Of a stretch of DNA of 64,000 nt, positions 24,301-51,001 are shown piece after piece. Made by a program: the position numbers and the translations under genes. Positions within the stretch are counted from its first letter, which is position 1. Every line of letters starts with the position of its first letter. The DNA comes from a virus: the IMG/VR virus record IMGVR_UViG_3300034630_000009, positions 1-64,000 of that record; one strand, 5' to 3'. The notes under the pieces are model-generated. The model saw nothing but the letters and a program-made list of their open reading frames with translations. It had not been told where the DNA came from and searched no databases.

Positions 24301-27022
24301 CCTGTATCAGCCCTTGCGTGACAATGGTTGATGCTTTGTCTGCAAACGCTTCAGTGTGGTTGCGTAGCCGCGTCATGCCCTCTGTTGCTTGATTCACGAT
24401 CGCGGCTATAGGCACATTCGCCGTTGCCTGTAACTGCTGATTGGCGATCGCTCTGCTCAAGTCATCCGCCAGCGTCACCCCTTGAGCAGCCGCACCCCGC
24501 AACAGGTCTTCAAAGGCTTGCTGGATGTCTTCAGCGCTACGTGTGTTGAGGAGTTGCAGCAGGTCAGACACCTGCAAGAGCAAGACCGCTGCTCGTTCAC
24601 GACCCATGAGAGAGCCGGGTGTCTCCTGGCTGTAACTCCGCAGTATTTGCGCTTCTAACGCCTGGTAGCTGGATTCTAAAGCGCTGTTGACACGCTCGAT
24701 CGCGCTATCCTCTAGTCCCTGGAGCAATTTGTCAGCGCGATCGATAATGCCGACGACTGGGTTTACCGCATCAATACGGCTCGTTCCACCAGTCGTTGTG
24801 GACTTTGGGAGTGTGCGATCGCTGCCTCCATCATCAGAATCAGCCCTGCCGTGACGCTCTTTGATGTCAGCAATTAATTTTCCGTAACGAGGCACCTTAT
24901 ACAAAGGATCGTCGTGAATGGCTTTGCCTGCTTCTGCTGCAAAAGCATTCTTCTGGCTATCGCTCAAGCGATCGTAGATTTGAGCCGAATATTCTAGTAC
25001 CGCTCGATTGTTTTCACCGCCAGCCACCCCTCTCATGCCCTGCCGCAGATTCGCTCCAGCATCCCGTACCTGGTCTGCATCCAACGACTGCTTGCCCCTG
25101 AGTCTACGTTGATCCTGCGTTCTGTCAAGCGCTGCTTCTGTACTGCCATTTGGATCGATTGGATGCAGCAATGCGTTCTTGTAGGCTTTATCACCCGCGT
25201 CGGATAGATCGAGTTTCGCAAGTTCAGCCAAGCGGCTTTTTACTTCAAAACTGCTGTGTCCATTTGCTTCTAGCGTTTCTTTATCACTTTTTGTTTTGGC
25301 AGGTTTAGCTTTAAGGGCAGCAAGTCTCTCTCGCGTGCTAGTCCTTGAACCGCTTTTGTTCTTTGCTGAGCGAGCCTTTGCAGAGTTAGTTTTTACCTTT
25401 GGCAGTTCTTGAGGCGCGATTTCACCCTTGCCACCATGCACTGCAAATCCAGCTTTGTACGCCGCATGATCAGGATGGTCTGATGGTTTAGTGCCTTTCC
25501 ACCCTTTACCACAAGCTGCATCCAGGCGTACTTTATCTAGTCGATCGTCATCGTCATCCTCGTCGTCTTCAAAAACATCACTCAGAGCAGAAACGGTGTC
25601 TTCTGTCTCATTCTCTCCCTCACCTTCTGCCTCTGCCTCCTCGCCCTCCGCCTCTGCTTGCTCTTCTGCCTCCGCTTGCTGCTTCGCCCATAGATCTGGC
25701 TGTAACTGACGCTCGATCGTGTACTCACTGCCAGACCAGGCGCTTTCTCGCACCTCTTCTGGTAGTAGCACCCCTGCTTGGATTGAGGGCACATCTACGC
25801 CTTGCGTCTGGTCTTTGCGGAGCTCTGTTTGCTCTTTCAGGTTGAGGCGAAGTGCCGATCGATAGCTCACACCCCAACTATCAGGCAACCGTCCACCTGT
25901 TGGTCCGTTTTGCGCTAGGAAAGTGAGCCGCAAGAAATCCTCGATCGGCTCTTCAAAAATCTCGGCACGGTAATCACTGACGCAATCCGCCCAGCCGTAC
26001 TTGTCACCTGTTGCTGAGTTGCTCAATGCCGTCTTCTGCGAACTGCCCCAAAGCTGCGAAGGCGGCATTGCAGCAGCAGCAGAAGTATCATCCTTGAGTC
26101 GATCGATCAGCGCATCCAGTCCGCCAAAGTTGCGGCTGATAAAGGTGCCATCTTCCCGATCGGCATCCATTGCCAGCCCACCCAGGCTAGACATCGACAT
26201 CAAAATGGCTTGAAACCGATGGAAGATCTTTTCCTGGTCGCCTGACTGAATCAGTTGCGCCAACCCTTGCAACTTGTAGACAAACTGGTTGTAATCCTGC
26301 ACCATGCGCGTCGAATACTCGATCGCAATCAGGTAGCGCACAAAGCTCTGGAAAAACGTTTGCAGCACTGAATCATGGAAGCCCGATGAACCAATCAGCA
26401 TGTCGCCCCAGAGCCTTTTGCCAGGGAAGCGGAGGACACGCGATCGATGAATCTTGCCGTTTACCTGTTGTCCAGGTAATGCTTCTGTTGCGGGCACGTA
26501 AAGGCTATAAAGTTCAGGGTGCCCTGGTCGTCCTGTTTGCGTTTCAGGATAGATACGCCAGCGATCGACTGGATACAACCAGGAGATTTTACGGATGCGT
26601 CCTTCGTTGACAGGTTCCCAAGGTTCACCACCGTCATCGATGCCAATAATCACAAAGCCGTCACCGTCCAGCCGTCCAGCGATCGCGGCTTCACGCACCA
26701 TGCTTCGCAGCTTCAAATCTTCGCTGTACTGCACCGCTTTGGCAGGGATACCTTTGCGTCCCTTACCGATCGTCACCTCTAGCCAGTTGTTAGCAGTAGC
26801 AGCTTTGGGCAGCAGATCCACCACTTTCTCGCAGATTTTGCTCTTACGGTAGAGCGCTTGCAGTTCGACTCGCGAGAGCGGTGAGAAGTTGAGATTGATG
26901 TTGTGCTCTAAATACTTGTCGCGTCCCTGTTGCCCTAATCCTGTCGCACGGTTGCCTAGCATCGCCAGGGCATTGAGGGCAACACCATCATTGCGTATTT
27001 CAGTAATCGCCGAATCGGTCAT
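21368..27022 (-). CDS. Portal (DUF1073-like) + MuF/SPP1 gp7 minor head domain + DUF3626-like + ART-like fusion
   Basis: IHRSRVLRF portal motif; IARTES..DSRLCPFC..PAHVACRC (MuF); RPIYGYL..TGADS..YMEAQVHGGV; VRGV..GIYGNGTY..GYDAV. Confidence 0.85.
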   Translation of the reverse strand: MTDSAITEIRNDGVALNALAMLGNRATGLGQQGRDKYLEHNINLNFSPLSRVELQALYRKSKICEKVVDLLPKAATANNWLEVTIGKGRKGIPAKAVQYSEDLKLRSMVREAAIAGRLDGDGFVIIGIDDGGEPWEPVNEGRIRKISWLYPVDRWRIYPETQTGRPGHPELYSLYVPATEALPGQQVNGKIHRSRVLRFPGKRLWGDMLIGSSGFHDSVLQTFFQSFVRYLIAIEYSTRMVQDYNQFVYKLQGLAQLIQSGDQEKIFHRFQAILMSMSSLGGLAMDADREDGTFISRNFGGLDALIDRLKDDTSAAAAMPPSQLWGSSQKTALSNSATGDKYGWADCVSDYRAEIFEEPIEDFLRLTFLAQNGPTGGRLPDSWGVSYRSALRLNLKEQTELRKDQTQGVDVPSIQAGVLLPEEVRESAWSGSEYTIERQLQPDLWAKQQAEAEEQAEAEGEEAEAEGEGENETEDTVSALSDVFEDDEDDDDDRLDKVRLDAACGKGWKGTKPSDHPDHAAYKAGFAVHGGKGEIAPQELPKVKTNSAKARSAKNKSGSRTSTRERLAALKAKPAKTKSDKETLEANGHSSFEVKSRLAELAKLDLSDAGDKAYKNALLHPIDPNGSTEAALDRTQDQRRLRGKQSLDADQVRDAGANLRQGMRGVAGGENNRAVLEYSAQIYDRLSDSQKNAFAAEAGKAIHDDPLYKVPRYGKLIADIKERHGRADSDDGGSDRTLPKSTTTGGTSRIDAVNPVVGIIDRADKLLQGLEDSAIERVNSALESSYQALEAQILRSYSQETPGSLMGRERAAVLLLQVSDLLQLLNTRSAEDIQQAFEDLLRGAAAQGVTLADDLSRAIANQQLQATANVPIAAIVNQATEGMTRLRNHTEAFADKASTIVTQGLIQGFGTDKIASLLHQQLGVVKARATAIARTESLAASNASAIASYQANGLSLGTWQSTLDSRLCPFCAARNQKIYRLEDIVLPAHVACRCFASPASERWLQLGLIDTKWATDFRAKSLAELRSQGLEPDDGASPFERANGLDAPEPVWSPEARSDSFECDEWREDAGTPCGRSWIKAGAKCTKGVSGGHPSANPNHPGHAAYQGTMAATTGKHTHPAAQSNHPDHAAYAAAHSQHGGKTPLPSGGGGAAPAQTAAKSKAAKQTGKRSTSKAQSNNTPISSTTPAQPANPVKLNQTELTSKRADLEKRFGKKLVQDAEANTKKVLSDADVFVRVGSTDTLEKVLGSGFKTSAELNVTGHSIPNLADKNYQDARNRVEARTLGYDAKTTQPGDRPIYGYLGSSDLNGQSHADVSRAYGSIAVKLKSDVKDRASFTGADSFKSGIASEVNNPNAASLVSLTRHGYDRDQLPAHYPSYMKGDQNDQSALQNAAKAKSIDDLAPKLSPTGNAYMEAQVHGGVKPSDIAAIHFEPSGVSDRPSADVAKFAKANNVDLYVSGKKLSSQEVDHIITPPTDHALHNLNDALDKGDLQGIFTHVDTIATHAATVKMASGERDKYLKAMYQIAGYDGKPTVGSSADVTKTWQDGGTLMVRGVNQGTTDRTQFLKQFQTGDYFTGNGIYGNGTYVGHAGTIVNGKFVGHDSKTATADAKRAFDDVAKHNYINSSSVTMQMALTKDAKVATQSAIQSQRKAALKKLQVLQKAEEKRIQSAGQNLNAADLQKYNAAHAKASLDNDAEFGTAKPKLTGKIQTNFGAEELHSYSAASTAKGSKLDFQIKSEQDLFGAIMGHSQKDWHYQDENGSWQKVKTRKEALDKGHRAAIARKSTEDALKAAGLTHAPGQTSQVTQQKLKALRDKIDAVKHVMGLNLGDTNGISYFAMIKGYDAVALNQSYEKKTFMTLLNRSKVVIQKDELDYTKAKKTGAL

Positions 27023-40603: not shown

Positions 40604-41261
40604 CAGCTTTTACTGGATTGAGAAAATTGGTACCGAGGATCAGAGAATACTGAGCGATCGCTTCATTTGCCGCGTCAAGATACTCTTTCGGCGCGATCGC
40701 TTTGTCGCTAACAGCTTCTCCTTTCTTGACCGCACGTAAGGCATGAAGGCAGGCTAATGAATCAATGAAGCGGTCTTTCAACACGGCGAACTGCTCAACA
40801 TCGCCCGATAGCGACCCATAACGCTTGGAGGCTTTGGCATAATCGCGGTACTGCTCAGCGTAAGTTTGCACTAACCAATACTCGGCATTGCTGCTCTTCT
40901 GCGCCTGTCGCTGAAACTGGTCGGCTCTGATCTTAATGAGCAACCCGAAATCACGATCACCTGTCGCAACGGCTTTATCCAGTGTGCTAATCAAGTCATC
41001 CATTGATGGTGAGTCAGTGGCAGGGGCTAGAGCTTGCCCATCCTTCTGCACCTGCCTCTGCACAGCAGCATCACGGACTGGTGTAGCTGGTGGGTTCTGG
41101 TGGGGTCGGGTAATCAGAGGCAACGCGATCGCGCCCACTACCACACCAAAGAACAACAGCTTACCTGCAAAGGTCGGCTTCCCTGGCGATGGGTTTGTCG
41201 AAGTTGGTGGGGTTGGTGTATGCCCATTTTGAGCGTTAAATTCTGGTGTGTCTGAAAGCAT
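40560..41261 (-). CDS. Single-pass membrane protein
   Basis: LLFFGVVVGAIALPLI followed by a helical domain. Confidence 0.7.
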   Translation of the reverse strand: MLSDTPEFNAQNGHTPTPPTSTNPSPGKPTFAGKLLFFGVVVGAIALPLITRPHQNPPATPVRDAAVQRQVQKDGQALAPATDSPSMDDLISTLDKAVATGDRDFGLLIKIRADQFQRQAQKSSNAEYWLVQTYAEQYRDYAKASKRYGSLSGDVEQFAVLKDRFIDSLACLHALRAVKKGEAVSDKAIAPKEYLDAANEAIAQYSLILGTNFLNPVKADEPTKSANKPAASK

Positions 41262-44855: not shown

Positions 44856-45209
44856 ATGGATACACAACCTAAAGAAATCGATCAATTCTTGTTCTTTTTC
44901 GTCAAAGGTGCCAACGAATTTGACCGACCAGTTACAGAAATTACCTTGAGTGTTCATGGTCTGCTGGTCACTGGTCAAATCATTGGCGCTGCTTTTTACG
45001 CCGAACAATTCAGTCAAGGCAAAGGCAAAGAGTCAGAACAAGCCTATGAACAGATCCGGCAAGACATCCTAGCGCAACAGGATTTGTATATTCACTTGCA
45101 AAATGCCAGGGTGCTGCTGAGTCGGGATTTCATTCCCACTGAAAGCACCGTTCTCTGGCGTGGAAGACTGGACGCGATCGACGGCTTTTTCTGGGGGCGT
45201 CTCGTCTAA
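44856..45209 (+). CDS. GvpU-like protein
   Basis: ITLSVHGLLVTGQII, YIHLQNARV, WRGRLDAIDGF. Confidence 0.65.
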   Translation: MDTQPKEIDQFLFFFVKGANEFDRPVTEITLSVHGLLVTGQIIGAAFYAEQFSQGKGKESEQAYEQIRQDILAQQDLYIHLQNARVLLSRDFIPTESTVLWRGRLDAIDGFFWGRLV

Positions 45210-45345
45210 AGCGCTGCGAGCTTGCAAAATCTCTGCCATCATTTTTAATGGCTGCATGTCTGGATGCATGACGACTTTCATAGGGCATAGCAAAGATAGC
45301 AACATCCCTACTATGCCCTAAGAGTTTGAGACAAACTATGCTTTT

Positions 45346-47057: not shown

Positions 47058-47214
47058 GGTTCTCCTTAGTGATATTGGGTGGACTAGGGCGATCGCAGCT
47101 TTGACCGGGTGCGATCGCTTCAAACTTTGAGCGGCACACTAATCAAATCCGTCATAGGTTGTTGTGACGGATTTGAGGTTATCTTTAGAAGAAGGACATA
47201 CAGGGCGATCGTTG

Positions 47215-47436
47215 ATGCTCCAAAATCCTGAAAGCTATGAGGAATGGGAAGAAACCGTTTGGGCAAAACATAAGGATGCAGCTTGTGTGTTGTGTCAGGC
47301 GATTGCGGCTGAGGCAACGCTAACAGCGGTCATTAACGTGACTCAGGAAACGAAGAAACTTAGCAAGAACGGTACTTATAGATTTGTTTGTCGGTTTAGA
47401 AGCGAGGTAAGCCCCAATGACAGTAGCAACACTTGA
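47215..47436 (+). CDS. Hypothetical protein (cassette 3, gene A)
   Basis: Paralog of 43478-43708. Confidence 0.75.
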   Translation: MLQNPESYEEWEETVWAKHKDAACVLCQAIAAEATLTAVINVTQETKKLSKNGTYRFVCRFRSEVSPNDSSNT

Positions 47437-47722
47437 GAGCGTCAAAACCTTTGCTTACATCCCAGCCAGAGGGCAACGCTTTCTCTCGGTCAATCTGGCG
47501 CTGGTTGATTTAAGTCAACTGAGTGACATCGCTAAAGCGCTTGGGTTTAAGCCAGAACTGGTACAAATGCAAGGCAAGTCTGGGACTCAAGTACACGCGC
47601 TTTTGTGGCAAGGGTCGATCGAGGATACGCCTGCTGATCTGGATGCACGAGTGGAGGTGCTGGCGGATCAGGTGAATACGGAAGCGATCCGCTATGCCAC
47701 TGGCGCTTGGACTAATCGCTGA
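47417..47722 (+). CDS. Hypothetical protein (cassette 3, gene B)
   Basis: Paralog of 43677-44009. Confidence 0.75.
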   Translation: MTVATLESVKTFAYIPARGQRFLSVNLALVDLSQLSDIAKALGFKPELVQMQGKSGTQVHALLWQGSIEDTPADLDARVEVLADQVNTEAIRYATGAWTNR

Positions 47723-47834
47723 GCTTCAAACTTTCATTACTTACACATCACCTCCTTACCAGAGCTTTATCAAAAGCTCGCGGATTTCCTCTGTTGACCG
47801 GGAACTCTTTAAACGAACTTATCCCGGTCAACCT

Positions 47835-48554
47835 ATGAAACCTTCCTTTTACTGGCTGCTGCTACCAGCCGCACTTGTCTCGCTAACCTTAAGTAGTTGC
47901 TCTGGGCAGACGACAAAAGCACCCGTTACCTCTCCTTCGCCAGTAGCCGTCGAATCACCATCACCTCAAACCGATACGTTTGACGCTGGTTTAGCCAAAG
48001 CTTCGGATGCCTCATATACCGCCAAAACGGCTGAAACTTCGGAGGATTGGGATCTGGCAGTGTCTCGCTGGCATCAAGCGATCGAGTTGATGCAAGGAGT
48101 ACCAACAGGAACTGCAAACTTTGCCCAAGCGCAAGAGAAACTGGCGGAGTACAAACGCGGTTTGCTTGCTGCCCAGAAGCGGATCACACCGAAAGAAGTT
48201 GCTTCAGCGCCTGTAGTATCTGAGCCTGAGAGCACGCCCATTGCATCAAAAGTTGATACAAGCAGTTGGTCAGAAGATCAGAAAGAGCAAGTGTTTTTAG
48301 CAGCGGTTGATGGCACCGCGTCACCAGCAGAAAAGGCTTGGGGTGCAACGGTTTCCAACGCGAAAAAAGTTGAGATTGCCAAAGGCGCTTGCAAAGAATT
48401 TGATCGAGGCGCAACCTTCAACGACATAGGACTCGAAATCATTAAGGCTTTCGGCTCCAAGTCTGCCGCTGGTAGGTACACCGCTGCAATGGTGGGTGGT
48501 GGCGTATCAGTTTATTGTCCCGAACACCGCTCCAAAATACCTTCTAGCCACTAA
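47835..48554 (+). CDS. Lipoprotein with DUF732-like C-terminus
   Basis: Signal peptide and LSSC lipobox; FLAAV..GAC..FDRG..YCPEH. Confidence 0.75.
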   Translation: MKPSFYWLLLPAALVSLTLSSCSGQTTKAPVTSPSPVAVESPSPQTDTFDAGLAKASDASYTAKTAETSEDWDLAVSRWHQAIELMQGVPTGTANFAQAQEKLAEYKRGLLAAQKRITPKEVASAPVVSEPESTPIASKVDTSSWSEDQKEQVFLAAVDGTASPAEKAWGATVSNAKKVEIAKGACKEFDRGATFNDIGLEIIKAFGSKSAAGRYTAAMVGGGVSVYCPEHRSKIPSSH

Positions 48555-48611
48555 CAACTCCTGACAATTCAACCTTTCACTTAACCCTCTATCGCACGAT
48601 CGAGGGTTTCT

Positions 48612-48884
48612 TTATGACTCTCCATCATGCTCTGTATTCAAAACCTGTCTAGGGAAATTAATGCCAAAATCAATCCCTAGAACGCTTTCTATCAGTCTTA
48701 GCGTCTCTTCTGGTAAAGATTGCTTCTCATCCTCAATGCGATACCAGTTTTGAACGGACATCCCTGCGGCAGCAGCAATCTGAGTAACGCTTCTAGCGTC
48801 TCCCTTCCGCGCCTCCCTGATGCGTTTTCCGAGCTCAGGTGCTTCTACTTCTACAGTCCGTACAACTCTCACATTTTGAACCAT
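48612..48884 (-). CDS. XRE-family HTH repressor
   Basis: LGKRIREAR..SVTQIAAAAGMSVQNWYRIE. Confidence 0.88.
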   Translation of the reverse strand: MVQNVRVVRTVEVEAPELGKRIREARKGDARSVTQIAAAAGMSVQNWYRIEDEKQSLPEETLRLIESVLGIDFGINFPRQVLNTEHDGES

Positions 48885-48928
48885 TAAATCACCACCTTAA
48901 AGTGTGTCACGTCTTGAGTAATGTGTAC

Positions 48929-49000
48929 ATAGTAATGTATCACTCAACTCACGTCAAGTTTAAGTTTTAACTTGACGTGTTTAACGTAATGAGTTAATCT
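48929..49000. promoter_or_regulatory. Back-to-back sigma70 promoters
   Basis: Plus strand TTGACG(48972)-17 bp-TAATCT(48995); minus strand TTGACG(48957)-17 bp-TACTAT(48934). Confidence 0.8.
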
Positions 49001-49240
49001 TAATTCATGGGTGAGGGACGGGGAACAGAGAACGCCAGACACTACGCCCCCGCCACGCCGCTGAGACTCTCGCTAACCAGGCACTCAACCGGAACCTCAC
49101 CCACACTCAAGACAACGCCATCACACGGTCACGCCAAGCGCCCGCCGTCACCAAAGGGCACCACGACGTAGGGTTCGTCACAGGGTCGCTGAGCAGCCAA
49201 ATGGAGATTGGCTAGTGGAACGGCTTTACCGCCTCAGTCC

Positions 49241-49307
49241 TGAAATTACGTTAATGCCAGCGAGGACGGTCTCAACTCCGTGTAAAGGCAGAGAGGCGTA
49301 CTTTTCA
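49241..49307 (+). ncRNA. Twister ribozyme (type P1), predicted cleavage between U49252 and A49253
   Basis: P1 UACGU/GCGUA; UAA; P2 UGCC/GGCA; P4 ACGG/CCGU; loop U-CUC-AA-CU; GA-GAG; pseudoknots CUC/GAG and AG/CU. Confidence 0.85.
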
Positions 49308-49321
49308 ACTGGAGAAACAAA

Positions 49322-49537
49322 ATGAAAACCACCGTAACGTTTGAAGAACTCAGAAAACTGCACATTGGCGACCAACTTGAAAATCCTTCCCGTTGCGGAG
49401 TGGCTGAAGTCATCCATAACGAGGAGCATTGCGTTGCGATCAGGGTCATCGACGGAGACGAAAGTCTCCGTATTGGAGCGACCATCAGCTATAGAGAGTC
49501 TGAGAGTTTGCACGGAGGATGGGAAATTCCTCAATAA
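49322..49537 (+). CDS. 71-aa hypothetical protein (SH3/KOW-like) between two twisters
   Basis: GGAGA RBS; IGDQLENP..GVAEVI beta-strand pattern. Confidence 0.7.
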   Translation: MKTTVTFEELRKLHIGDQLENPSRCGVAEVIHNEEHCVAIRVIDGDESLRIGATISYRESESLHGGWEIPQ

Positions 49538-49582
49538 CTTTTAGAGCCGATCGCAGTTTTGGAGGCAAGCTTTAACGCCTCC

Positions 49583-49636
49583 CGCTAACGTGCCAACGCC
49601 CGATTCCAAGTTCGGGGGGAAGAAGACGGAGGAGCG
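49583..49636 (+). ncRNA. Twister ribozyme (type P1), predicted cleavage between U49586 and A49587
   Basis: P1 CGC/GCG; UAA; P2 CGU/ACG; P4 CCCGA/UCGGG; loop U-UCC-AA-GU; GA-GGA; pseudoknot UCC/GGA. Confidence 0.8.
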
Positions 49637-49686
49637 TACACCAACAGTTAACGGAGTAAAACAATAACCACTTACAAAGACACACC

Positions 49687-49836
49687 ATGAGTAAAAACCA
49701 AAAGCCCAATGTCTATACGCCCACAGGAGCGGGCACCGTCGCCTCCAAAGATGTCAAAAACAACGAGGTAACGGTAACGGTCGTCTATCCCAATGGCGAT
49801 CGAACAACCTGGTCTGACGACGAGGTTGTTTATTGA
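49687..49836 (+). CDS. 49-aa hypothetical protein (absent from ORF track)
   Basis: MSKNQKPNVYTPTGAGTVASKDVKNNEVTVTVVYPNGDRTTWSDDEVVY*. Confidence 0.6.
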   Translation: MSKNQKPNVYTPTGAGTVASKDVKNNEVTVTVVYPNGDRTTWSDDEVVY

Positions 49837-49848
49837 TCGCCGCGCAGC

Positions 49849-50052
49849 TTAGAGTAAGCCATCTTCCCGCAACTTTGCTTCCACCGCCGATCGCACGTAA
49901 TCAGCTTTTGCTGTGCCCATCGCACGCAAGAGCGCGTCGATCGTGGGCGGAAATTTAAAAGATAACGGACGTTGATCGCTGGTTGTCCCTAGACCTTTGC
50001 TCCATTGTTTTTTTGCTGCTGCCGCTTCTGGATTATGTTTACGTTTTGCCAT
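49849..50052 (-). CDS. Small RHH-like DNA-binding protein
   Basis: PLSFKFPPTIDALLR..ADYVRSAVE. Confidence 0.65.
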   Translation of the reverse strand: MAKRKHNPEAAAAKKQWSKGLGTTSDQRPLSFKFPPTIDALLRAMGTAKADYVRSAVEAKLREDGLL

Positions 50053-50172
50053 ATCGATCCTTTATCTTTTTACTACTATAGCGCGTAAACTCCCAGCAAA
50101 ATCAGTAAAACTACTGAGGACTGCGAGTAGACGCGCTGCTAAGATGGACGCATCACTTCAAGAGGTTTTTCA

Positions 50173-50388
50173 ATGCACGCACCCACCCCTGCCGAACGCG
50201 CCGCTCTGATCGCCCCCCACTTGGGCGTTTCGCGCCCCTTCAGCGCTGCTGGCTCGTCCCTGATCGACCAGATCCGAGAGCCGCTGTTTGAGGCGCAGTC
50301 GCTCGATCCAGCCGAAGAAGCGCGGCTACTGGCTGCTCTGTCCGTCCAGATCGCCGGACGGCTGGCAGCGCTCCACGGTTGCCGCTAG
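50173..50388 (+). CDS. Hypothetical protein
   Basis: GAGG RBS. Confidence 0.5.
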   Translation: MHAPTPAERAALIAPHLGVSRPFSAAGSSLIDQIREPLFEAQSLDPAEEARLLAALSVQIAGRLAALHGCR

Positions 50389-50445
50389 ACCGCGAGGGGC
50401 GGGTTGCGCCGCCCCCTTTGCACCCCACACCCCACACCCCACACC

Positions 50446-50919
50446 ATGCAATCCTTAATCGCCCACTACAACACCGCCGCTTTTCTCCGCACCTTCGCTG
50501 CCTCCTGCTACGTCGCTGGCAAATTGGTTTACGGCGAGATCAAGTCGATCGCGCTTGAACTCTGGACCATCTACACCAGCGAACGAGCGAAGCGGCTCTA
50601 CACCTTCCTGATCCTCTCGGTCATTGCCCTTGCTTGGATGGGTGCCTTCGCTGCCGTCTGGTTGGGCAATCGCAGCCGCGAACAATTTGACCGCTTCGTT
50701 GCTTGGCGCGATCGGTTCATCGCTTCCCATCTAGAGCAGCCTTCCGAGTGCCTGGTCGGTGACGAAATTGCTAAAGCGGGTTGCGCTGTGATTGCTGAAC
50801 TCTTTGCTCAAGCCGATGCCATCATGGCTCACCCGGTTTACGCTGATGCACCCGCCACACCCATCAAGCGCCGTCGCAAGGTCAAAGGTTTTCAATCCGC
50901 ACAGGAGGTGATCGCCTAA
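50446..50919 (+). CDS. Hypothetical membrane protein
   Basis: TM segment FLILSVIALAWMGAFAAVWL. Confidence 0.6.
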   Translation: MQSLIAHYNTAAFLRTFAASCYVAGKLVYGEIKSIALELWTIYTSERAKRLYTFLILSVIALAWMGAFAAVWLGNRSREQFDRFVAWRDRFIASHLEQPSECLVGDEIAKAGCAVIAELFAQADAIMAHPVYADAPATPIKRRRKVKGFQSAQEVIA

Positions 50920-51001
50920 CAGACCGCTGCTGCCTGCGAACAGCGTGAGCGATCGCGCAAACACCTATTTCATTCATTTCATTACTAAGGAGAAAGTAAA
51001 A

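What the first reader, a model, noticed from the sequence alone, without database searches (positions are those of the whole stretch)
49241..49636. Two twister ribozymes bracket a small ORF: predicted self-excising, circularisable mRNA in the phage early transcript
Seen: two sequence-divergent elements each fit the type-P1 twister architecture (P1, UAA, P2, P4 with a U-NNN-AA-NN loop, GA-NNN) with compensatory pairings. Copy 1 has P2 UGCC/GGCA, P4 ACGG/CCGU and pseudoknot CUC/GAG. Copy 2 has P2 CGU/ACG, P4 CCCGA/UCGGG and pseudoknot UCC/GGA. They flank the RBS and ORF 49322-49537, downstream of the sigma70 promoter divergent from the repressor. Known: twisters cut at U^A, leaving a 5'-OH and a 2',3'-cyclic phosphate, the ends ligated by RtcB. 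Inference: double cleavage releases RNA 49253-49586 (334 nt). Its 3' end (CGCU) can pair with the GCG of the copy-1 P1 strand, so ligation would rebuild a twister at the junction. This suggests a retrozyme-like circular mRNA, or ribozyme-based dissection of the early transcript into separately stable pieces.
Basis: partly seen in the sequence, partly recalled or inferred. Interest (0 to 1): 0.95.

Follow-up and report, generated by a model that had tools for sequence, protein, structure and literature searches.

The report
Two twister ribozymes flank prophage gene
Two self-cutting twister RNAs do bracket a small orphan gene at the start of a cyanobacterial prophage's early operon; this is a known kind of phage layout that most likely cuts the message into pieces, and nothing supports an RNA circle.

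Summary
Copy 1 (49248-49299) is a full-length, P3-less type-P1 twister: Rfam RF03160 gives 41 bits, E 2.3e-7, below the 67.2-bit cut-off. Copy 2 (49582-49637) is weak in Rfam (13.7 bits). A clade model built without it scores it 19.3 bits, E 1.9e-5 per kb. It has two relatives, in a sister genome and in Tetrasphaera phage TJE1. Across the three, 49 of 51 pair cells are paired and 8 of 17 pairs changed on both sides.

The predicted cuts at 49252/3 and 49586/7 bracket a 334-nt RNA that carries an orphan 71-aa ORF.

Similar sub-threshold twisters occur in 20 of 89 genomes of the same family. Ribozymes flanking single prophage genes have been published since 2011 (PMC3088659), and this scan has noted them 163 times on other DNA.

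Circularisation has no support. RtcB was not found in the complete host genome, and no RNA data exist.

One added finding: the only sister prophage lacks exactly the segment between the two cut sites.

Verdict: a new member of a known kind, most likely transcript processing. Interest is moderate.

The parts
48612..48884 (-). Divergent 90-aa HTH (XRE-type) repressor-like gene
   Evidence: Pfam HTH_31 E 2.3e-7. PHROG transcriptional repressor/regulator families.
48950..48979 (.). Perfect 11-bp inverted repeat (CACGTCAAGTT, 8 nt, AACTTGACGTG) with TTGACG on both strands. Likely an operator with divergent -35 boxes.
   Evidence: Read. The scan found a promoter-like site on the - strand at 48957-48929. 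The + strand candidate (TTGACG, 17 nt, TAATCT) has only 3 of 6 matches in its -10 and was not reported.
49005..49252 (+). About 248-nt C-rich non-coding leader whose 3' end would be made by twister 1
   Evidence: 88% identical to sister genome G011 from about 49003 up to the cut site, with indels that break its 54-codon frame. Composition C 84, G 65, A 64, T 35 of 248. It folds no better than shuffles, z +1.51. The transcription start is inferred from where conservation begins.
49223..49235 (+). 13-mer GCTTTACCGCCTC, repeated 12 of 13 before copy 2
Evidence: exact shared GCTTTA and CGCCTC.
49248..49299 (+). Twister ribozyme copy 1 (type P1, no P3). Predicted cut U49252^A49253.
   Evidence: RF03160 41 bits, model positions 1-68, E 2.3e-7. 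Clade model R1 57.4 bits, though copy 1 is a member of that model. PK1 AG/CU and PK2 CUC/GAG are compensatory against the consensus GC/GC and CCC/GGG.
49311..49537 (+). GGAG ribosome-binding site plus orphan 71-aa ORF (49322-49537)
   Evidence: No Pfam or PHROG family. The only hit among 5.8 billion proteins is itself. Found in 1 of 90 family genomes, itself. ESM Atlas model pTM 0.68, pLDDT 0.77.
49569..49581 (+). Second copy of the 13-mer (GCTTTAACGCCTC), inside hairpin GGAGGC...GCCUCC just 5' of copy 2
49582..49637 (+). Twister ribozyme copy 2. A divergent subtype with 3-bp P2, PK1 containing a G.U pair, and a 9-nt P4-P2 junction. Predicted cut U49586^A49587.
   Evidence: RF03160 13.7 bits. 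R1, built without it, 19.3 bits, E 1.9e-5 per kb. Relatives in G011 at 22.6 bits and phage TJE1 at 23.5 bits. Covariation.
49687..49836 (+). Next small ORF (49 aa), the first on the 3' cleavage product
   Evidence: No family found.

Best explanation
Both elements are genuine type-P1 twister self-cleaving ribozymes in the leader of a temperate cyanophage's early operon, which runs rightward and diverges from an HTH repressor gene.

As the transcript is made, each ribozyme folds and cuts 5' of its conserved adenine, at U49252^A49253 and U49586^A49587. Three RNAs result:
1. A C-rich leader of about 248 nt ending in a 2',3'-cyclic phosphate.
2. A 334-nt monocistronic RNA. It starts with a 5'-OH, has the compact twister-1 body as its 5' cap-like structure, and then carries the RBS and the 71-aa ORF.
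3. The downstream message, which starts with the twister-2 body.

The likely purpose is to detach the leader and give each piece its own defined, structured 5'-OH end. That would uncouple the stability and translation of the small early genes.

Shown here: the folds, their conservation and covariation, and the recurrent placement of such twisters. Inferred: cleavage itself, the transcription start, and the effect on stability.
For: Copy 1:
- It aligns end to end with RF03160 at 41 bits, E 2.3e-7.
- It is the only hit of that strength in the genome; the next scores 15.6 bits, E 7.

Clade context:
- Matches at E<=0.01 occur in 22 of 151 relatives, 20 of 89 genomes of the same family, and 0 of 14 control genomes.
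- On 31 aligned rows, 89.2% of cells are paired: P2 97.5%, PK1 96.6%, P4 98.2%, PK2 96.6%.
- 15 of 17 pairs changed on both sides, 0 of 500 shuffles reached this, and slid controls were at most 38.7% paired.
- The two pseudoknots were not part of the model that made the alignment.

Copy 2:
- The independent model R1 gives 19.3 bits.
- P4 reads CCCGA/UCGGG here, CUGCA/UGCAG in G011 and CCUGG/CCAGG in phage TJE1. PK2 reads UCC/GGA against CCC/GGG.
- 49 of 51 cells are paired and 8 of 17 pairs changed on both sides; slid controls gave 41-51%.
- Its MFE fold is the twister P1/P2/P4.

Tolerance of imperfections:
- Published large-scale assays say P1 is dispensable, that P2 and P4 mismatches and loop insertions are tolerated, and that G.U is the best-tolerated pseudoknot defect (PMC11662667, passages).

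Placement:
- A same-strand ORF starts 22 nt after copy 1 here, and 19-54 nt after the twister in L008, L016, L018, L021, L026 and L032.
- A second true tandem pair exists in G022, at 40.3 and 36.9 bits.

Precedent:
- Hammerheads flanking single genes in prophages have been shown to cleave (PMC3088659, passages).
Against: - Neither copy reaches Rfam's gathering score.
- Copy 2 is E 2.5 in Rfam, and R1 with default filters missed it.
- Copy 2 has only 3-bp P1 and P2, a wobble pair in the 2-bp PK1, and AAGAA plus a 4-nt insert where the consensus has UAAA. G011's version loses a further P2 pair. Copy 2 could therefore be slow or inactive.
- Its subtype rests on three sequences.
- No + strand promoter passed the consensus scan.
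- A terminator-like hairpin at 49515-49532 could end some transcripts before copy 2.
- There are no RNA data at all.
- R1 and R2 E-values are rough because calibration was shortened.
Confidence: 0.62

Rival explanations
1. Only copy 1 is active and copy 2 is a decaying or regulatory remnant. One cut releases the leader, and ORF71 stays on one RNA with the downstream genes.
For: Copy 2 scores 13.7 bits, E 2.5 in Rfam. It has short P1 and P2 and an altered P4-P2 junction. An earlier scan note describes eroded twisters between prophage genes (e1-5795117).
Against: The same subtype is kept, with compensatory changes in P1, P4 and PK2, in G011 and in an actinobacterial phage. Relics should not covary. 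The cleavage-site A, the G-A before PK2 and the loop U-NNN-AA-NN are all intact.
Confidence: 0.17
2. After double cleavage, the 334-nt RNA is ligated end to end into a circular, translatable mRNA whose junction rebuilds a twister.
For: The ends would be 5'-OH and 2',3'-cyclic phosphate. The 3' end CCGCU can pair with GCGU of copy 1, giving 3 bp. Engineered twister-flanked RNAs are circularised by RtcB in the Tornado system (seen as a search listing only; details recalled). Perreault et al. raised circular products as a possibility (PMC3088659, passage).
Against: RtcB was not found in the 100%-complete genome while 10 of 14 controls rang. No Pnkp match exceeded the cut-off, best 57 bits against 750. 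Both ribozymes are type P1, so the circle would keep a complete, self-cleaving twister at its junction and tend to reopen.
Confidence: 0.06
3. The 334-nt unit is a gene cassette that moves between phages at twister sites. It was either inserted into, or deleted from, a resident twister at the scissile position. The mechanism could be DNA recombination in the short shared flank, or RNA-level cleavage and ligation followed by copying into DNA.
For: G011 carries the same leader (88% identity) joined directly to a copy-2-type body (84% identity). The junction lies within CG(C/T)TAA, at window 49250-49255 and 49584-49589. The two bodies are too unlike to be a recent duplication. All P1 strand combinations pair. 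The unit is flanked by a 12-of-13 repeat plus CGYTAA. In other loci, homology blocks often start at +1 to +5 or end near +72 relative to the twister start.
Against: There is one sister lineage only: 2 of 101 genomes, 2 of 90, and the only 2 real hits among 15 metagenome stretches lie on one contig that reads like G011's. Sharp boundaries at a conserved functional element next to fast-evolving spacers are expected without any special mechanism. No integrase or reverse transcriptase was linked to the unit. No other copy of the unit or of ORF71 exists anywhere searched.
Confidence: 0.1
4. A chance resemblance: neither element is a ribozyme.
For: Both elements are below Rfam's gathering score.
Against: Genome-wide E 3.7e-7 for copy 1. 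Clade-wide covariation includes pseudoknots that were not modelled. Independent relatives of copy 2 show compensatory changes.
Confidence: 0.02

Closest known systems
Type-P1 twister self-cleaving ribozymes (Rfam RF03160; class reviewed in PMC5408937)
   Same: The order P1, U^AA, P2, PK1, P4 with an 8-nt loop, junction, P2', G-A, PK2', P1'. The double pseudoknot. The conserved A 3' of the cut. P3 is absent, which the review lists as optional.
   Different: Both copies score below the curated cut-off (41 and 13.7 bits against 67.2). Copy 2 belongs to a subtype with a 3-bp P2, a GC/GU PK1 and a 9-nt purine-rich junction. That subtype was seen here in only three sequences. The host is a cyanobacterium. 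The papers I read name anaerobic bacteria among known hosts, and the stem 'cyanobacteri' occurs 0 times in PMC11662667.
Clustered hammerhead ribozymes flanking single genes or short gene blocks in prophages (Perreault et al. 2011, PMC3088659)
   Same: Co-oriented self-cleaving ribozymes bracket one small, variable gene in a prophage operon. The proposed role is processing into gene-length mRNAs, and spliced or circular products were mentioned there as possibilities.
   Different: The ribozyme class is twister, not hammerhead. The first ribozyme also releases a conserved 248-nt leader. Cleavage is not tested here.
Tornado circular-RNA expression system (twister-flanked inserts ligated by RtcB; search listing, details recalled)
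   Same: A twister, insert, twister layout that gives 5'-OH and 2',3'-cyclic phosphate ends.
   Different: As I recall it, Tornado uses a permuted 5' twister so that both ribozymes are discarded, and it relies on RtcB. Here both are type P1, so a whole twister stays on the excised RNA, and the host shows no RtcB.
Retrozymes and viroid-like circular RNAs with paired ribozymes (PMC6765202, PMC5680766)
   Same: Two ribozymes in direct orientation delimit a unit-length RNA.
   Different: No long terminal repeats were seen. No primer-binding site or polypurine tract was looked for. The unit is single-copy, it encodes a protein, it sits inside a DNA prophage operon, and there is no evidence of circles or reverse transcription.

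Membership tests
Twister ribozyme, type P1 (RF03160) | Covariance-model score at or above Rfam's gathering score (67.2 bits) | tested here: not met
   Copy 1 scores 41 bits and copy 2 scores 13.7 bits. There were 0 gathering hits in the window. The cut-off is a curation threshold. All 28 clade hits also lie below it, the best at 59.9 bits. Much of copy 1's shortfall goes with the absent P3.
Twister ribozyme, type P1 (RF03160) | Stems P1, P2 and P4 in the canonical order with the termini in P1 (PMC5408937) | tested here: met
   Copy 1 has 4, 4 and 4 bp. Copy 2 has 3, 3 and 5 bp. In clade alignment A3, P2 cells are 97.5% paired and P4 cells 98.2%. In subtype alignment A6, P4 is 100% paired, with 4 of 5 pairs changed on both sides.
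Twister ribozyme, type P1 (RF03160) | Double pseudoknot joining loop L4 to the internal loops (PK1 2 bp, PK2 3 bp) | tested here: met
   Copy 1 has AG/CU and CUC/GAG. Copy 2 has GC/GU and UCC/GGA. PK1 and PK2 are each 96.6% paired with both-side changes in A3. These pairs were not in the model that built the alignment.
Twister ribozyme, type P1 (RF03160) | Strongly conserved nucleotides: A 3' of the scissile bond, loop U-NNN-AA-NN, G-A before PK2', and A-rich P4-P2 junction | tested here: inconclusive
   Copy 1 has all of them. Copy 2 keeps U^AA, UUCCAAGU and G-A, but has GGGAAGAAG in place of gUAAA. Long A-rich junctions also occur in 10 clade members. Assigning the G before PK2' as the general base is partly recalled.
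Twister ribozyme, type P1 (RF03160) | Site-specific self-cleavage giving 2',3'-cyclic phosphate and 5'-OH ends | not testable with these tools
   No RNA run holds the stretch. Contigs cannot show RNA ends.
Ribozyme-punctuated prophage operon (Perreault 2011 type) | Two or more co-oriented self-cleaving ribozymes flanking a single gene or short block inside a prophage | tested here: met
   The prophage is shown by terminase, portal, head protease, major head, tail tape measure, Rha and an HTH repressor. Two twisters on the + strand flank ORF71. No third copy was found in the window with R2 and filters off; the third-best hit scores 13.7 bits, E 0.14.
Retrozyme / viroid-like circular RNA | A covalently closed RNA, with a ligase able to join 5'-OH and 2',3'-cyclic phosphate ends | tested here: not met
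   For the ligase: RtcB 0 of 1 with 10 of 14 controls ringing, and no Pnkp match above the cut-off. The Hen1_L search was uninformative because the control was silent. The circle itself is not testable here.
Retrozyme / viroid-like circular RNA | A repeated, multi-copy element | tested here: not met
   There is one copy of the twister-1 type in the genome. ORF71 occurs once in G000 and in 0 of 89 other family genomes. It has no other protein in 5.8 billion.

The most novel reading that the evidence does not exclude
Twisters act as junction sites for gene-cassette exchange in these phages. The 334-nt unit (twister-1 body, ORF71, hairpin and a P1 strand) would be a discrete cassette. It entered, or left, a resident twister exactly at the scissile bond. 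All P1 strand combinations remain compatible, so that both the 'spliced' and the 'circular' forms rebuild a working ribozyme. If the event occurs at the RNA level, by cleavage and reverse ligation followed by copying into DNA, it would be a ribozyme-delimited mobile element of a new kind.
Probability: 0.07. Interest if true: 0.85.

Novelty: new member of a known kind. Interest (0 to 1): 0.38.

Why it matters
What phage twisters are for is still an open question; the review PMC5408937 calls their roles largely speculative. This locus is a compact natural test case. It has one promoter, a conserved leader, two different twister subtypes and one small gene. A sister prophage naturally lacks the middle unit.

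The work also shows that a cyanobacterial family carries many twisters that Rfam's threshold misses. In addition, a divergent subtype is shared with an actinobacterial phage, which is useful for improving ribozyme models.

This is not a new kind of system. The circular-mRNA idea that earned the high first-stage score is unsupported.

Tried and rejected
**Searches that added nothing**
- Rfam at gathering thresholds over the window gave 0 hits.
- R1 with default filters missed copy 2.
None carried a whole twister: 1 chance regex match, and 5 with a complementary P4 but nothing else. The pattern also demanded TTCC, so it would have missed TJE1-like loops.
- Three exact motifs in viral contigs gave 0 hits each. 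A degenerate subtype pattern gave 0 hits.
- A leader 18-mer in metagenomes gave 15 stretches. Only 2 are real. Both lie on one contig, and their printed stretch of about 480 nt is identical to G011's over the overlap.
- ORF71 has no relatives, and ORF171 has relatives only in G011. Twister-ORF-twister synteny around homologous genes therefore could not be tested.

**RNA evidence**
- No RNA holder was listed. Laying the two DNA-type runs showed nothing usable.

**ORF71**
- The single-sequence AlphaFold2 model was too poor for a fold search, pLDDT 51.6.
- ESM Atlas neighbours scored 0.87 or less (KilR 0.85). They are leads only.

**Leader motif**
- RNAalifold on a MAFFT alignment of the leaders gave 0 pairs. 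A second MAFFT alignment was not structurally consistent. The leader motif therefore rests on reading the sequences.

**Neighbouring genes**
- Pfam on 10 neighbour ORFs of other twister loci gave only sub-threshold RHH hits. My first guess that the divergent 260-316-aa ORFs are CI-like repressors was not supported.

**Other hits dismissed**
- The Streptomyces phage Caelum hit (E 5) lies antisense between tail genes and was dismissed.
- The Hen1_L search is uninformative because the control was silent.
- I did not fold the hypothetical circle or spliced junctions, because that needs joined sequence.

Supplementary files of the papers were not seen. Lists of twister hosts in the supplements of PMC11662667 could bear on whether cyanobacterial twisters are already catalogued.

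Full report
**Setting.** The window is a prophage in a cyanobacterial genome.
- Large ORFs match terminase, a portal-MuF fusion, head protease, major head protein, tail tape measure and a Rha-type regulator.
- The HIP1 octamer GCGATCGC occurs 84 times against 1.5 expected. That HIP1 marks cyanobacteria is recalled knowledge.
- The finding lies just right of a 90-aa HTH repressor-like gene on the minus strand (48612-48884).
- A perfect 11-bp inverted repeat (48950-48979) carries TTGACG on both strands.
- The consensus scan reported a promoter-like site only on the minus strand. The + strand candidate has a poor -10, so the early promoter is inferred, not shown.

**Observation.**
- Rfam at gathering thresholds finds nothing in the window.
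- In E-value mode, copy 1 (49248-49299) aligns to all 68 positions of twister-P1 at 41 bits, E 2.3e-7. The optional P3 hairpin is deleted.
- Copy 1 is the only hit of that strength in the 6.9-Mb genome. The next scores 15.6 bits, E 7.
- Its two pseudoknots differ from the consensus by compensatory changes: GC/GC becomes AG/CU, and CCC/GGG becomes CUC/GAG.
- Copy 2 (49582-49637) also aligns end to end, but at only 13.7 bits, E 2.5.

**Is copy 2 real?** Three lines of evidence say probably yes.
1. *An independent model.* I built clade model R1 from 13 P3-less twisters of related genomes plus copy 1, leaving copy 2 out.
   - With filters off, R1 gives copy 2 19.3 bits, E 1.9e-5 in 1 kb, against 6.9 bits for the next hit.
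   - Over 86 kb of loci the E-value is 0.0016. Apart from each locus's Rfam-identified twister, only three other sites reached E<=1: G011's twister (22.6 bits), the second twister of L023 (17.7 bits) and one 11.9-bit hit.
   - These E-values are rough, and default filters missed copy 2.
2. *A sister genome.* Same-genus genome G011 has a single twister of the same subtype, scoring 22.6 bits. Its P4 reads CUGCA/UGCAG where the window has CCCGA/UCGGG.
3. *An unrelated phage.* BLAST against phage records found 87% identity over window 49587-49632 in Tetrasphaera phage TJE1. The match lies in an unannotated gap between orf52 and an ERF recombinase gene. It is a complete twister of the same subtype, with a 6-bp P1, P4 CCUGG/CCAGG and PK2 CCC/GGG, scoring 23.5 bits with R1.

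Across the three sequences, 49 of 51 cells are paired and 8 of 17 pairs changed on both sides. Slid controls gave 41-51%.

Published high-throughput assays report several tolerances (PMC11662667, passages read): P1 is dispensable, mismatches in P2 and P4 and loop insertions are tolerated, and G.U is the best-tolerated pseudoknot defect.

Against this, the subtype rests on three sequences. G011 loses one P2 pair. The P4-P2 junction departs from UAAA.

**A clade of twisters.** RF03160 hits at E<=0.01, all below the cut-off, occur in 22 of 151 relatives. That includes 20 of 89 genomes of the same family, and 0 of 14 control genomes.
- On the 31-row alignment, 89.2% of cells pair and 15 of 17 pairs changed on both sides. 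No shuffle out of 500 reached this, and slid controls were at most 38.7%.
- P1 is the weak helix, at 64.2% paired. Four poor rows were left in the alignment.
- In many loci a same-strand ORF starts 19-54 nt after the twister. Here the gap is 22 nt.
- G022 has a second true tandem pair 126 nt apart, at 40.3 and 36.9 bits, with no ORF between the two.

**The unit between the cuts.**
- ORF71 has a GGAG site 7 nt upstream and a confident language-model structure, pTM 0.68.
- It has no family and no relative anywhere searched.
- No third twister exists in the window.

**The sister-genome indel.** G011 matches window 49003-49257 at 88% identity and window 49583-49643 at 84%. The two blocks abut, so the segment between the two cut sites is missing.
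- The junction lies within CG(C/T)TAA.
- The two twister bodies are far too different to be a recent duplication.
- All P1 strand combinations pair.
- The flanks share a 12-of-13 repeat.

This fits cassette gain or loss at the twister. It is, however, one comparison. Boundaries at a conserved functional element are expected anyway, and homology blocks in other loci start or end at the twister edges in the same way.

**Circularisation.**
- RtcB was not found in the 100%-complete genome, although the same search rang in 10 of 14 controls.
- No Pnkp match exceeded the cut-off.
- No RNA data exist.
- Both ribozymes are type P1, so any circle would carry an intact self-cleaving twister.

**What is known.** Multiple hammerheads flanking single prophage genes were described and shown to cleave in 2011. 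Processing, splicing and circles were all raised there as possibilities (PMC3088659, passages). Twisters lie near such genes too (PMC5408937, passage). This scan holds 163 earlier notes on ribozyme-punctuated phage operons on other DNA.

**Verdict.**
- Copy 1 is a twister: about 0.95.
- Copy 2 is a functional twister: about 0.8.
- The most likely role is cutting the early transcript into a leader, a single-gene mRNA and the remainder.
- The circular-mRNA reading is unsupported.
- This is a new member of a known kind, with a modestly interesting cassette-like indel.

Noticed in passing
loci L008-L034 (relatives G017-G134): A clade of twister-P1-like ribozymes, all below Rfam's cut-off (27-60 bits), occurs in 20 of 89 genomes of the host's family. 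One near-identical 53-55-nt subclass (10 loci from several genera) has no clear P1. It sits after a small ORF with weak RHH hits and before a conserved 121-aa ORF.
   Followed up: partly
window about 49197-49247; L009, L011, L014, L016, L020, L030, L031, L034 about 60 nt 5' of their twisters: A shared upstream motif: a covarying hairpin, then (A)GCGGA(A)GG, a second small hairpin, then (C)UGA(G)AA, ending about 5-12 nt before P1. The window and G011 carry a diverged version. No Rfam family matches it. Automatic alignment and folding failed.
   Followed up: partly
window 49005-49252: The non-coding leader is 88% identical to G011, while the neighbouring genes differ. It is C-rich (34% C, 14% T), has five ACGCC repeats, and folds no better than shuffles, z +1.51. 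Its function is unknown.
   Followed up: partly
L212 1493-1554 (HQ225832.1, Tetrasphaera phage TJE1, about 40985-41046): An unannotated twister of the copy-2 subtype lies between orf52 and the ERF recombinase gene of an actinobacterial phage.
   Followed up: yes
L023 (G022:C36, about 24349-24617, minus strand): Two genuine twisters in tandem, 126 nt apart, with no ORF between them. The second has a 7-bp P1 and is followed by a 64-aa ORF.
   Followed up: partly
G011:C70, about 44899-45215 and about 147100-147416: The leader-twister locus and its downstream gene occur twice, with identical hits, 102 kb apart on one contig. This could be two prophages, a large duplication or an assembly effect.
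   Followed up: no
window 49587-49886: In a second run, X2 (kind guessed as DNA), the only pieces on this stretch are two 151-nt records identical to the window. The first begins exactly at 49587, the first base after the predicted copy-2 cut. Contigs cannot show RNA ends, so this is a coincidence to note, not evidence.
   Followed up: no
window 49223-49235 and 49569-49581: A 13-mer, identical at 12 of 13 positions, precedes both twisters. Its CGCCUC is complementary to GAGGCG in the 3' strand of copy 1. Before copy 2 it lies within a GGAGGC/GCCUCC hairpin.
   Followed up: partly
window 49515-49532: A terminator-like hairpin with a weak T tract lies inside the 3' end of ORF71, upstream of copy 2.
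   Followed up: no
window 47119-50948: There is no HIP1 octamer for 3.8 kb around the switch region. Elsewhere in the window the average spacing is about 760 nt.
   Followed up: no
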